From Octopus vulgaris (lineage: Eukaryota): a stretch of DNA of 64,000 nucleotides. Below are positions 13,495-64,000 of this stretch, piece by piece (the stretch's first letter is position 1; each line of letters begins with the position of its first letter). Below the pieces are notes generated by a model, which was not told the DNA's origin, did not search any database, and saw nothing but the letters and a program-made list of their open reading frames with translations. The DNA lies in NCBI GenBank assembly GCA_951406725.2, contig OX597819.1, positions 26,040,001 through 26,104,000 on the forward strand, in the 5' to 3' direction. The translations under genes and the position numbers were made by a program.

Positions 13495-13800
13495 ATCACC
13501 ACAATTTAATACGGTATTATCCATACAATTTCAAAATAAGGTGATTAAAATGTTAAAAAAAGCAGCAAGGATATCCAGAGCTAATGCAGTACGATCGTTT
13601 CAAGCAATTCCATTTAATTGAACAATCAAATCATTACATCAATTTAACTGCAGAGCAATACTCAGCTGCATAAAGACAGAATTTATTTAAATTAAAACAG
13701 ATGGACACATTAGTATAAATTTACCTAAAATCTCCAAGAAGGTTAGGTGATAGACAAAGAACATCCTGTCTTCACTTCAGCTTAGAAGCAACTAAGTTAT
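13495..13800 (-). mobile_element. Short dispersed repeat with a hammerhead-like motif (Penelope-terminus-like)
   Basis: Homologous to 23285-23480, 62795-62996, 63204-63358 and 63880-63985; motif at 13584-13671. Confidence 0.65.
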
Positions 13801-15040
13801 CAGGAAGAAAGACTTGTTACAGATTTTGCTTGTCACAGTTTTATGGAGTCAGTTTTAATTTATAGACTAGTTTATCAAAACTTTGTATATCTAAGGCCAA
13901 AGTATTCAAAAACTTCTTTATCCTTTTGTTATAATATTCTTTTAACTTTATGCAATATGGCAATATTGTTTAAAATATTTTGTTATAGTACCACATGATA
14001 AGATTTCTCCTGTTTCATTATCAATGGTCTACTAGTGGTGTGCCCCTTTAATTTTCAGCTAGCGTCTTGATATAAGATTTCCTTTACCAAATCTGAAATA
14101 AATCTTGATAATTTTTATGACTATACCCACTATGATTTCTGTCGTCTCCCTTAGCACACTTCCTAACAGGCATTGCTCTTTGATCTTTTGGCCTTAGCTA
14201 TACAAACATTTCATAAACTAGTGTATAAATTAAAACTGACCCCATAAAACAGTGACAAGCAAAATCTGGAATACCCAATAGAATGAAGATTTATAGTCAC
14301 GTGGTTGCTAAATCCAGCACTATGAGAAGGTTTTCTACCCGGTCAGGGGTTTGGCGAATATATCAGATGCATGAACGTAAATATAACACATGCATGAACG
14401 ATAGTTCGGTAAATGGGTTACTTCACATTAAATGAGAAATATAGTTGTAATTAGACATTTAAAAAAATTTGAAACAGTAAAGAACTAAATGAATGCCTGT
14501 ATCTGTCTAGTTAGATAAGTGTACTGTTGTTGTTGACATTTAATTACTTAAAACAGTGGCCTTATGAAATGCTATACGATATCGTAAAATATCGAAACCC
14601 GAGGCGTTTTTGTATCACTATTTTCTATATCACTTTTATTTTTCATTGCCTAATATCCATTCGTAAGGAATATGACGTGCTTTTGTCTCAGAAATTTTAT
14701 GTAATGTAGTAATACTTCAACAATGAATTATTCAAGAAAACCAAACTTTTCTTCAAGGCAAACTTCTCTCAAACTTAATTTTGATAATTAAATCATTCTG
14801 ATTAGAACCCGCTTCACATTCGAGCGCAGAAGACGAATAAAGACACAATGAAAATGAAAATACTGGCAATAATTCAAACGAAATTACATACGTATATTTT
14901 TATTGCTTGAATGATCTTTGAATGTCACGAGAACATTATCGCAAAGTAATTAGAAAATTTATTGATAGAACATATAGTAGGATGGCAGGTGCTTATTAGT
15001 TCTACAAATGGATAAATCTCAGGTAGAATTGGTAAGTATA

Positions 15041-15546
15041 TCTATATATATAAAACTCTAGTTGTGTGAGTGTCTGTCTCCTTCGATTTAGATTCCTAAC
15101 TCCTCCCACATTTTGCGGTGCAGTTTAACCAAATTCGGGTATATTATAGTCGTGATTCATATCGAGCCCGTCTGGCTATTAGTGCGCGTCAACGATGAGT
15201 CTACGATTTTAAAAATAATTTAACATCATTTTTTATTCCATTTTAATGCATAAAATGCATCGTATGTCGATGGCGGCGGAGTTGGCGTCCACGCTCACAG
15301 CTGCACCTGTTTGCTTCTCCACCTTCCCTCCCTCGTGAAGCTGTGGGGAAGGGAGTGTAAAGAAATCAACGTCGTAATGCGTTGTGAAGGAAACTAGCGT
15401 TCTTTTAGAATAACGACTTCATGGCTTGAAGACACCAAAACAAAAATAGCTAAGAAAGCCCGAATTTATAAGGGAAGTAACTCTCTAAAAATGCTTATAT
15501 AGTTATTTCCCTTACAAACCCGAGCAACGCCGGGCGATACTGCTAG
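15041..15546 (+). mobile_element. Non-autonomous Helitron, copy 1
   Basis: A|TC 5' end, subterminal hairpin CCCGAGCAACGCCGGG, CTAG 3' end. Confidence 0.88.
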
Positions 15547-15945
15547 TCTTTATATATAAAAGTGAAGTTGTGTGTCTGTCTCCTACGATTTAGATTCCTA
15601 ACTACTCCCACATTTTGCGGTGCAGTTTAACCAAAACCGGGTATCTTATAGTCGTGATTCATATCGAGCCCTTCTGGGTATTAGCGCGCGTCTACGATGA
15701 GTCTACGATTTAAAAAAACATTTACCATCATTTTTTGACATTTTAATGCATTTTTTCACTATTATATAAGGGAAGTAACTCTCTAAAAATGTCTACGATG
15801 AGTCAACGATTTTTAAAAAATTTACCATCATTTTTTTTCTCCATTTTTAATGCATTTTTTTGCTACATTTTGGCTATAACTCTCTAAAAATGCTTATATA
15901 GTTATTTCCCTTACAAACCCGAGCAACGCCGGGCGATACTGCTAG
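15547..15945 (+). mobile_element. Non-autonomous Helitron, copy 2 (head-to-tail with copy 1)
   Basis: TC start directly after the CTAG of copy 1; same hairpin; ends CTAG|T. Confidence 0.88.
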
Positions 15946-16197
15946 TTCATAATAAGAATATTTCATGCTCGGCTTTACTTTTTATTCTTTCGGAGTCGAT
16001 AGAGTAGGTACCAGTTGAGCATTGGAGTCTGTTTAATCGACGTACGCTCTCCGCCGAACCTCCGCCGAACAAATTTTGAAATCATTATTAGAAGTATTTA
16101 CGAATGTGATCTCTTTCATTCATTGCTGTTTTCAAACGATACTTCTGTATGTCTCTCTCATTTGGAAAATAATTTAATCGTTATACCACTATTAAAA

Positions 16198-16570
16198 AGG
16201 CGACGAGCTGGCAGAAAAATTAGCACGCCGGGCGAAACGCTTAGCGGTATTTCGTCTGCCGCTACGTTCTGAGTTCAAATTCCGCCGAGGTCGACTTTGC
16301 CTTTCATCCTTTCGGGGTCGATTAGATAAGTACCAGTTACGCACTGGCGTCGATATTATCGACTTAATCCGTTTGTCTGTCCTTGTTTGTCCTCTCTGTG
16401 TTTAGCCCCTTCTGGATAGTAAAGAAATAGATATTTCGTCTGTTTTTACGTTCTGAGTTCAAATTCCGACGCGGTCGACTTTACTTCTGATCCTTTCGAT
16501 GTCGATAAATTAAGTACCATTTGTGTAGTGGGGTCGATATAATCGACTGGTCATGTGCCTAGAGTAGAAA
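16198..16570 (+). mobile_element. tRNA-derived SINE, family B, with partial tandem second unit
   Basis: GGCGACGAGCTGGCAGAA head, GAGTTCAAATTCC B-box, core GGTCGACTTTGCCTTTCATCCTTTCGGGGTCGAT; core repeated at 16431-16570. Confidence 0.88.
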
Positions 16571-61500: not shown

Positions 61501-62046
61501 GCTGTATTTAACTGACTAAGTGTTTCAGTGAATTACTATAAAGAGACATGTAAAAACTATATTTATCGAGAAAAGAATTGAAACATACGTGTTTAAATGC
61601 TTCTAGTGCACACAGAATCATTTATCATAAGTAAATTTAATCGCAGGAAATTAATGTAGCCTAGCTTTGTCAGCTGCCGTATTACAACCAGCATAACAAA
61701 TTGGTTTTTCAAATGAGACATGTATACTTCTCTCAGTAATTAATTACAACGTGTTATGAGTTTCAATTAGTGCTAGTATTTATAACATTTTAACGATAAA
61801 TGCTTCTGCGGCTCATATCTTCATTCTCAATAGAGACGTTCAGCTAAAAAGCCTAATAGATAAATAAAATAGATTGTGCAAACTGATGTCTTTCAGAAAA
61901 TGTTTATAGCTGTCTGTGTTCTGTGCATACTTTGGTACTGTGAGTGTTCACCTGAGGAGTAGCCTGCGGTATACACTTAGCCTCCCGCTCGCTATGAAAC
62001 ATATGTAGACCGGATTTTATGTATTCCATTCCATAACTTTTATATA

Positions 62047-62373
62047 TCTTTTATATAAAACCCGTTCTGTCTGTGTGTGTGCCTTCTAGGATCTCGGGCA
62101 TCCTCCATCCGATTGCGCTCAAATTTGATATGTAGATACCGACGGTATCAGGCCGTGTATAAGTCTTGAAAACATAAAAAAATCGATTCCAGGTGAGAAT
62201 GGGATCGATAAAGACGGTGGAACGTGCATTTGTACGCGCAAGTACATGAGTCGAAATCCGTCTTTTGCTGGTATCTCAAATTTAGGTTAAATCAGTGTTT
62301 CTCAAAGTTGTTTTGAGAAAATTTGGTTTGAATGTTTGACAAATCAGCAACGTCCATCGGACGGTTTCTCTAT
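62047..62373 (+). mobile_element. Probable non-autonomous Helitron
   Basis: A|TCTTTTATATAAAA start followed by TCTGTCTGTGTG; subterminal hairpin CGTCC-atc-GGACG; degenerate CTAT end. Confidence 0.6.
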
Positions 62374-62841
62374 ATATATATATTTCTTTACTACACAAGG
62401 GGGAGTGCGAGTACTTAATTTATTTGCTCGAACTCGGAACGTAACGACAGACGAAATACGGCTACGAATTTCGCCCGGGTGCTATATATATATATATATA
62501 TATATATATATATATATATATATATATACGTAAAGTTTGCCATTTGTGTGTGTGTGTGTGTGTGTGTGTGTGTGTGTGCTGATAGTGTAAGTATGAAATA
62601 TATATATATATATATATATATATATATATATATAGCAAAATTTATATTCTATATAAAATATATATATATATATATATATATATATATATATATATTGTGT
62701 GTGTGGTGTGTGTGTGTGTGTGTTATATATATATATATATATATATATATAGATGAATATGGTACTTATTCAGATGAATAATTAAGTTTAAGCGAACAGA
62801 ATTTTGTATGGCATTATCCATATAAATCAAATGGGGTGATT

Positions 62842-63358
62842 ATAATCAAAATAAGCAACAGAGATATCCAAGTTCGAGTAGTACAATTGTTTCATGCTGC
62901 ATCATTTTATTAAACACTGTAAGTATTACATCAGTTCTCAAATGTCGAGCAAACTTCAATCACATACAGAATTTTCCAATTAAACGAACAATGCACGGCG
63001 AGGTTAATTTCATTCTTTAGAAGATGATGGTAGTATGTTCATTCTCCCTAGAAGGCACATAAACAGCCAGAACGGGTTTTATATAAAAGATATATAAGAA
63101 TGGAATGAACATACTACCATCATTTTCTTAAGAATGAAATTAACCTCTCTGTCTACATATATACTCTCTTTGTAATATTGGCAAATGAAATATGGATAAG
63201 AATGTGCATTGTCCGTTTAATTGGAAAATTCTGTATGTGACTGAAGATTGCTCGACATTTTAAAATTGATGTAATACTTACTGTGTTTAATAAAATTTGG
63301 TAGCATGAAACAATTGTACTACCCTACCTTCGCTATCCTTGTTGCTTATTTTGATATA
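62842..63358. repeat. ~520 bp fold-back of a hammerhead-bearing repeat
   Basis: Arms 62842-62996/63204-63358 and 63001-63045/63104-63147 are reverse complements. Confidence 0.88.
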
Positions 63359-64000
63359 TATATATATATATATATATATATGTTTCAGTCATTTGACTGG
63401 CATCATACTGGAGCACCACTTTGTTTGAAGAATTTATTCGAACAAATCGACCTCATTTGTGTTATTCTGAATCTGAAACTTACTCCATTGTATTCTTTTG
63501 AGAATCAACGCACACACACACACACGCACACACGCACACACACACACACACACACACGCACACACACACACACACACACACACATACCCATATATACATA
63601 CACATATACAGATAGATAGATAGATAGATAGATAGATAGATACATGTACATATATAAATATACTTATACATATATATACATACAAAAACATATGCATATA
63701 CACACACATATTTTCCCTCTGCTACACTCTAAATTATAGTAGGCTTATTAAGATATACATTATTTTGCCACAGATATAACATAAGGAAAAGAAAGTTATT
63801 AGTTTGGTTTGATTTTATTTATGTAAATTTGTTTCAAATGATTTATCTTTTATGTTTGAAATCTATATGGTCATCTTTGTTGAAGAGAGAGGTTTATTTG
63901 AAATTGATGTAATGTTTTTATTGATCAATTACATGGAGCCGCTTGAAACGGCCGTAATGCATTGACAGCTGTACATCCTTGTTAGTTATTTACATTCTGT

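What the first reader, a model, noticed from the sequence alone, without database searches (positions are those of the whole stretch)
13584..63962. Homologous repeats carry hammerhead-like cores whose loop III changes but stays palindromic (GATC/AATT/GGCC)
Seen: five homologous copies with type-I hammerhead order (stem I, CTGANGA, long insert, GAAAC-NNNN-GTA, stem I'). 13584-13671(-): ATGCAG-CTGAGTA..GAAAC-GATC-GTA-CTGCAT, perfect 6 bp stem I. 23372-23458(-): CTGATGA..GAAAC-GATC-ATA. 62878-62963(-) and 63237-63322(+): (C/T)TGAAG..GAAAC-AATT-GTA. 63880-63962(+): GAAAC-GGCC-GTA. Established: Penelope-like elements and metazoan retrozymes carry minimal hammerheads with a palindromic loop III that are proposed to cleave as dimers. 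Inference: three different palindromes at one homologous position suggest selection for dimer pairing in the source elements. The ~55 nt stem-II insert pairs poorly by eye and most copies have a core mutation.
Basis: partly seen in the sequence, partly recalled or inferred. Interest (0 to 1): 0.72.

Follow-up and report, generated by a model that had tools for sequence, protein, structure and literature searches.

The report
Penelope retrotransposon hammerheads with switching palindromes
These are decayed tail ends of Penelope-like jumping genes carrying a predicted self-cutting RNA motif whose short loop changes between families but stays self-complementary, likely because two copies must pair to cut; this design is already known, and the new details are a long side arm and a visible mutation path between palindromes.

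Summary
The five motifs are present as written, but they are four insertions of three subfamilies (62878/63237 is one inverted insertion), and each is damaged. Subfamily majorities have an intact hammerhead core (14 of 14 positions shared, against 58 of 104 elsewhere). Stem I and the base of stem II show compensatory changes. For all three subfamilies a reverse transcriptase/GIY-YIG gene with Hydra-clade Penelope-like motifs lies upstream on the same strand (0.95-3.3 kb), so these are pseudo-LTR hammerheads. Palindromy is genome-wide: 72 of the first 100 listed matches, and 41 of 55 sequence clusters with 10 different palindromes (shuffle mean 7). The inner two bases also covary, which a single hairpin cannot explain. 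Corrections: the 'AATT' subfamily is mostly GATT (44 vs 30 of 100), a wobble step on a CpG path from GATC; selection acted on source elements, not on genomic copies; the insert does pair. Cleavage is untested, and RNA reads showed no end pile-up. Palindromic dimer-type hammerheads in these elements are published; the 57-59 nt arm is longer than in published Hydra examples. This scan noted the same kind earlier on other DNA of this genome.

The parts
13584..13671 (-). Copy 1 hammerhead motif, GATC subfamily: stem I 13666-13671/13584-13589, core 13659-13665 (G8>U), 57-nt stem II insert 13602-13658, GAAA 13598-13601, C-GATC-G 13592-13597, predicted cut after 13590
13487..13901 (-). Direct 3' end (pseudo-LTR and tail) of the 5'-truncated element holding copy 1
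13899..14271 (+). Inverted 5' segment of the same insertion (3' UTR sequence of the element)
23372..23458 (-). Copy 2 motif, GATC subfamily, G16.2>A (CpG decay); truncated element about 23235-23478 ending at (TA)n
62878..62963 (-). Copy 3 motif (AATT; C3>U, A9>U): direct end of an insertion, runs about 130 nt past the predicted cut site into (TA)n near 62751
63237..63322 (+). Copy 4 motif (AATT; core intact, first stem I pair broken): inverted 5' copy of the same insertion as copy 3, ends about 36 nt past the predicted cut site at (TA)n near 63355
63880..63962 (+). Copy 5 motif, GGCC subfamily, C3 lost; element starts near 63704 and runs past the window end
21897..21974 (-). Sixth motif, not homologous in the arm (49 nt), intact: 5-bp stem I, G10.1-C11.1, C-AATT-G, GUC cut site

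Best explanation
The copies are decayed 3' ends of three related Penelope-like retrotransposons, likely of the Hydra clade, each carrying a type I hammerhead motif that is predicted to cut only when two motifs pair through their self-complementary stem/loop III. Shown: the motif, its compensatory stems, the same-strand RT/GIY-YIG gene upstream, 5' truncation, inverted 5' copies, insertion into (TA)n, and two fixed ends about 35 and 130 nt past the predicted cut site. Inferred: in the source elements the 2-bp stem III is too weak alone; two motifs (the two pseudo-LTRs of one transcript, or two RNAs held by the element's protein) form an 8-bp helix ACNNNNGU and cleave, trimming the transcript to unit length. 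Only loop changes that keep this helix became new source elements (GATC to GATT by a G-U wobble, to AATT; GATC versus GGCC). Inserted copies then decay neutrally. The 57-59 nt arm is an extension of stem II that likely tolerates variation beyond a 4-10 bp base.
For: Core 14 of 14 identical across three majorities that differ by 21-35%. RNAalifold on 12 chosen diverse copies recovered stem I and the stem II base, 7 of 8 pairs with double-sided changes; named structure 86.9% paired, 0 of 500 shuffles as high, slid controls 34-46%. RT/EN upstream, same strand: L164 3.3 kb, L402/L403 about 0.95 kb, L400 1.9 kb. Motifs GLYRDD, WFNIPYN, CxCx5C match Hydra proteins in PMC8557442 supplement (compared by eye). 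A sister family has same-strand motifs 4.7 kb apart flanking the ORF (L300). 41 of 55 clusters palindromic, inner pair complementary in 42 of 55, all four self-complementary inner dinucleotides used, stem I >=3 bp in 40 of 55 vs 8% for mismatched arms. In the GATC subfamily pair-keeping and pair-breaking decay products are equally common (10, 9, 9 of 100). AATT is linked to a flank variant (39 of 52 vs 3 of 12, p=0.002), so an AATT source existed. Predicted homoduplex -10.0, -5.8, -6.4, -14.1 kcal/mol for GATC, GATT, AATT, GGCC; +0.3 for AATC.
Against: No cleavage was measured. RNA reads (3 runs, one study, about 6% of each read) lay on both strands with no pile-up of ends anywhere, though they mostly come from decayed copies in fragmented libraries. 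No copy ends within 19 nt of the cut site (0 of 141), so the copied template carried an uncut or rejoined 3' motif. Of 87 loci, 57 were solo and 29 had an opposite-strand upstream partner; only one had a same-strand neighbour within 1.5 kb. In a lizard PLE the hammerhead was dispensable for insertion in vitro (PMC11167929 passages). The stem II base is weak in the GATC subfamily (U-U plus 2-3 pairs). Clusters are not fully independent (13 AGCT clusters include relatives). Clade assignment rests on motifs, not a tree.
Confidence: 0.75

Rival explanations
1. Protein-assisted or conditional ribozyme whose cleavage is not part of copying: the palindrome serves to pair two element RNAs in the ribonucleoprotein, and cutting only regulates expression or happens late.
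For: Copies keep the whole motif plus about 35 or 130 nt beyond it; no read ends at the cut site; PMC11167929 passages report protein-assisted cleavage, uncut RNA as main template, two RT start sites that make the tail, and a predicted protein dimer.
Against: Core bases needed only for catalysis are kept 14 of 14 across subfamilies. This rival is partly compatible with the best explanation and differs in what cleavage is for.
Confidence: 0.15
2. The three palindromes are a mutational by-product: CpG decay is strand-symmetric, so CGATCG turns into CAATTG without selection for pairing.
For: GATC>GATT>AATT are both CpG transitions; GATT is commonest in that subfamily (44 of 100); CAATTG arises in 4 of 100 GATC-subfamily copies; the G>A versus C>T ratio does not differ between the two subfamilies (Fisher p=1).
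Against: Does not give GGCC, nor AGCT, CATG, CTAG, GTAC, TGCA in other clusters; AATC and CGATCA arise as often but head no subfamily; AATT is linked to a separate flank variant.
Confidence: 0.04
3. The motif works as a monomer and loop complementarity only extends stem III by a third pair, or is a DNA-level palindromic site for the element's endonuclease.
For: Outer loop pair is complementary in 51 of 55 clusters; the palindrome reads the same on both DNA strands.
Against: A 2-nt loop cannot pair inside one hairpin, yet the inner pair is complementary in 42 of 55 clusters with four different dinucleotides; G-U variants are accepted as sources, which fits RNA; a protein site would keep sequence, not symmetry; element ends lie 35-130 nt away.
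Confidence: 0.06

Closest known systems
Type I hammerheads of Hydra-clade PLEs (Craig et al. 2021, PMC8557442; passages, section 11, File S1 rows, File S2 table read)
   Same: C-terminal EN+ element with GLYRDD, WFNxP, CxCx5C, DKT; (TA)n targets; hammerhead near the 3' end; U-U at the base of stem II in many; self-complementary arms in stem III; one octopus member listed (Hydra-1_Obim).
   Different: Listed Hydra motifs have stem II of 3-7 bp with 3-10 nt loops and mostly an odd, unpaired centre in loop III; here the arm is 57-59 nt and the 8-mer is a perfect even palindrome. Listed elements are mostly under 3 kb; here the 3' UTR alone is 0.95-3.3 kb, the longest built of about 850-bp tandem units.
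Metazoan PLE hammerheads with small palindromic helix III, proposed to act as dimers (Cervera and de la Pena 2014, PMC4209133, parts 1-2 of 4 read; Lunse et al. 2016, title only from reference lists, text not held)
   Same: Pseudo-LTR location, 4-6 bp stem I, palindromic 15.2-16.2/loop 3, mostly solo or opposite-strand pairs 100-700 bp apart, high variability within a genome.
   Different: Helix II there is 6-8 bp with a conserved G10.1-C11.1; here it is U-U or G-U with a long extension. Long arms do have a precedent in spike-moss PLE-X1 motifs (about 50 nt, File S2 of PMC8557442).
Non-LTR retrozymes (Cervera and de la Pena 2020, PMC7229834, passages; Li et al. bioRxiv 10.64898/2026.07.22.740005, part 1 of 5)
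   Same: Type I motif with palindromic tetraloop; U-U at the base of helix II in axolotl Amex2.
   Different: Retrozymes are short non-coding tandem repeats; the five copies are truncated ends of protein-coding elements. The sixth window motif's family does form a 535-bp tandem array (L335).
Poseidon PLE of Anolis (PMC11167929, passages)
   Same: Two fixed ends beyond the motif (tail), no RNA ends seen at the cut site.
   Different: Different clade, ORF starts inside the motif, tail of a different length; activity was measured there and not here.

Membership tests
Type I hammerhead ribozyme (PLE, dimer type) | Core CUGANGA / GAAA / UH in type I order | tested here: met
   Met in all three subfamily majorities; damaged in most window copies
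Type I hammerhead ribozyme (PLE, dimer type) | Stem I with covariation | tested here: met
   4 pairs found by RNAalifold, 3 with double-sided changes; 93% of cells paired
Type I hammerhead ribozyme (PLE, dimer type) | Stem II closed next to the core, G10.1-C11.1 | tested here: inconclusive
   4 covarying pairs one step out; the first pair is U-U or G-U, not G-C; U-U also occurs in published Hydra motifs
Type I hammerhead ribozyme (PLE, dimer type) | Short stem III with palindromic loop | tested here: met
   GATT is self-complementary only with G-U pairs
Type I hammerhead ribozyme (PLE, dimer type) | Self-cleavage, as a dimer | not testable with these tools
   RNA reads showed no end pile-up, not a decisive test
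Rfam hammerhead families | Match at gathering score | tested here: not met
   0 matches in 5 loci; no hammerhead among the 150 of 328 listed window matches
Penelope-like element (EN+) | RT plus GIY-YIG ORF upstream of the motif, same strand | tested here: met
   L164, L402, L403, L400; frames broken in these copies; Pfam gave no match at cut-off for 4 of 4 fragments
Penelope-like element (EN+) | 5' truncation, inverted 5' copy, tail | tested here: met
   (29 of 87 loci with inverted upstream copy)
Hydra clade | CxCx5C linker, CxxC and CxH motifs, C-terminal EN | tested here: met
   Seen in the GATC parent and in sister L300
Hydra clade | DKT and RWK motifs | tested here: inconclusive
   DKT and RWA in sister family L300; N-terminal part of the three parents not recovered
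Hydra clade | (TA)n insertion | tested here: met
Hydra clade | Placement in RT phylogeny | not tested
   No reference proteins were in the script machine; assignment by motif comparison with the supplement
Naiad | N-terminal GIY-YIG | tested here: not met
   EN follows RT
Non-LTR retrozyme | Short non-coding tandem units, each with the motif | tested here: not met
   1 of 87 loci with a same-strand neighbour within 1.5 kb; coding parents found

The most novel reading that the evidence does not exclude
The palindrome is a family-specific pairing code: dozens of co-resident Penelope-like families use at least ten different palindromes so that each RNA dimerises and cuts mainly with its own kind, and new codes arise through wobble intermediates that are themselves successful (GATC to GATT to AATT), with the long arm as a docking site for the family's protein.
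Probability: 0.12. Interest if true: 0.7.

Novelty: new variant of a known kind. Interest (0 to 1): 0.33.

Why it matters
The role of hammerheads in Penelope-like elements is open: they are nearly universal, yet weak in vitro and dispensable in one assay. This genome gives a natural covariation set (three homologous subfamilies, ten palindromes over 55 clusters, a captured wobble intermediate) that supports RNA-RNA pairing in the source elements and defines ready swap experiments. The long arm escapes Rfam and is likely missed by short-spacer descriptors, so hammerhead counts in such genomes are probably too low: two patterns alone give about 27,000 matches. The basic design is published, which limits the surprise.

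Tried and rejected
Rfam scans: only microsatellite miRNA noise in the window, nothing in 5 loci. Naiad 'half-core' reading: rejected by domain order; three 12-letter loop motifs had 0 hits in that paper's supplement (line breaks and cut runs may hide matches). Nematis label from recall: replaced by Hydra after reading the supplement. An antisense ORF in the 3' UTR: the region is non-coding tandem units. One search used wrong coordinates and searched an unrelated stretch; its 30 loci served only as flanks. The test 30 AATT vs 5 TGATTG is not valid alone, because decay is also asymmetric in the GATC subfamily; linkage replaced it. Similarity-picked loci overstate the query's loop (28 of 39 AATT, against 30 of 100 by position). 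Run search: no RNA holder listed. Reads on the tandem-array family are not available, so circular RNA is untested. Literature searches found no paper describing long-armed hammerheads in cephalopods; the library lacks most subscription journals and Lunse et al. was not held, so it may cover such variants. Supplements of PMC4209133 and PMC7229834 were not read.
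Full report
Observation. The five strings are at the stated places and align as homologs. They are four insertions of three subfamilies: 13584 and 23372 share a subfamily, and 62878(-) with 63237(+) form one insertion, a direct end with a tail and an inverted 5' copy without it. 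Each window copy has a lesion in the core or stems. The window lies in G000, 2.8 Gb, likely an octopus (inference from size and element likeness). The three queries drew 2947, 1826 and 2450 first-look candidates. Five profile hits in 60 evenly placed 10-kb stretches suggest about 23,000 copies (95% range 7,600-54,000).

The motif in the source elements. Majorities of 90, 39 and 37 held copies differ by 21-35% yet share 14 of 14 core positions against 58 of 104 others (p about 3e-4; the copies were picked by similarity). RNAalifold on 12 copies chosen for diversity found stem I and the base of stem II unaided, 7 of 8 pairs with double-sided changes. A named structure with the inner arm was 86.9% paired, above all 500 shuffles and the slid controls, but the inner helices show almost no double-sided change, so the arm beyond its base is only predicted. 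Insert folding z-scores were -3.3, -1.5 and -5.1 against mononucleotide shuffles. The first pair of stem II is U-U or G-U, not G-C. Rfam does not detect the motif.

The parent. Copies share 3' ends, are variably cut at the 5' side and often carry an inverted 5' copy (29 of 87 loci). Ends cluster 20-59 and 110-149 nt past the predicted cut site at microsatellites, mostly (TA)n, and none lies within 19 nt of it (141 copies). [quoted passage not shown] Same-strand RT/EN lies 3.3 kb, 0.95 kb and 1.9 kb upstream of the GATC-, AATT- and GGCC-type motifs (L164; L402, L403; L400). GLYRDD, WFNxP, CxCx5C and, in sister element L300, DKT match the Hydra clade of Craig et al. 2021 (PMC8557442: section 11 and supplement; compared by eye, no tree). 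L300 has same-strand motifs 4.7 kb apart on both sides of its ORF.

Is palindromy selected? The pattern with a 50-60 nt arm has 11,779 matches against 88 controls; of the first 100 listed by position, 72 loops are strict palindromes and 17 more pair with G-U (my tally). A 20-49 nt arm gives 15,815 against 1,646. Clustering all 210 motifs in held sequence gave 55 clusters: 41 palindromic, ten different palindromes, column-shuffle mean 7.0 and maximum 18; stem I of at least 3 bp in 40 of 55 against 8% for mismatched arms (clusters are not fully independent and include chance matches). The inner pair is complementary in 42 of 55. It cannot pair inside one hairpin, so this points to pairing between two motifs (inference).

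Correction on AATT. By position (first 100 rows each, my tallies): GATC subfamily CGATCG 53, CGATTG 10, CAATCG 9, CGATCA 9, CAATTG 4 (of 1,216 matches); 'AATT' subfamily CGATTG 44, CAATTG 30, CGATCG 6, TGATTG 5 (of 1,374); GGCC subfamily CGGCCG 44, CAGCCG 13, CGGCTG 11 (of 129). Inserted copies decay at CpG without regard to pairing. GATT, a wobble form, was itself a major source. AATT partly arises by decay, but it is linked to a flank variant (39 of 52 vs 3 of 12, p=0.002), so an AATT source also existed. Pair-breaking products head no subfamily.

Mechanism. Best reading: two motifs pair through the 8-nt palindrome and cleave after GUA, trimming element transcripts; shown are the motif, its covariation and its context, while cleavage and dimer dependence are inferred from PMC4209133 (parts 1-2 read: monomer inactive, dimers weakly active) and PMC6765202 and PMC6466107 (passages). 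Against a simple role in copying: copies keep the uncut motif, and 398, 438 and 282 RNA reads lay on both strands with no pile-up of ends. PMC11167929 (passages) reports the same absence in a lizard PLE, with protein-assisted cleavage and two RT start sites, which would explain the two fixed ends here.

Comparison and verdict. It works like, and by all testable features is, a PLE pseudo-LTR hammerhead of the dimer type. The Hydra motifs in File S2 have short arms and mostly odd loops, though two spike-moss motifs there have arms near 50 nt. Six searches found no description of long-armed cephalopod motifs; Lunse et al. 2016 could not be read. Earlier notes of this scan describe the same kind in this genome; my reading was formed before that call. 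Real, well supported, a modest variant of a known system: interest 0.33.

Noticed in passing
window 21897-21974 (-); L335 3396-6376: Intact hammerhead of another family (49-nt arm, AATT, GUC). The family forms a young 535-bp tandem array, five motifs in a row plus one inverted, 99% identical: a retrozyme-like candidate for circular RNA.
   Followed up: partly
L300 5142-9900 (G000:C1:13050950-13060949): Young, nearly full-length Hydra-type element with same-strand motifs 4.7 kb apart and RT/EN in two long open frames; best candidate for a cis dimer test.
   Followed up: partly
L151-L164: The GATC subfamily's 3' UTR consists of three or more tandem units of about 850 bp, 70-82% alike, the first overlapping the ORF end.
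   Followed up: partly
L319, L326: A family with loop CGAG, not a palindrome; a dimer would hold tandem G-A pairs (predicted duplex -6.6 kcal/mol).
   Followed up: no
window about 23100-23132 (+): Decayed short-arm hammerhead-like core (GACGAG...CTCGAAACGTTA) of another common repeat next to copy 2.
   Followed up: no
arm centre of all three subfamilies (A3 columns 45-55): The middle of the arm is more conserved in sequence than its base, which may mark a protein or promoter site.
   Followed up: no
L337: GTAC family as two tandem motifs 545 bp apart, mirrored on both strands.
   Followed up: no
window 34206-34747 and 38877-39409: 542-bp inverted repeat, 96% identical, 4 kb apart.
   Followed up: no
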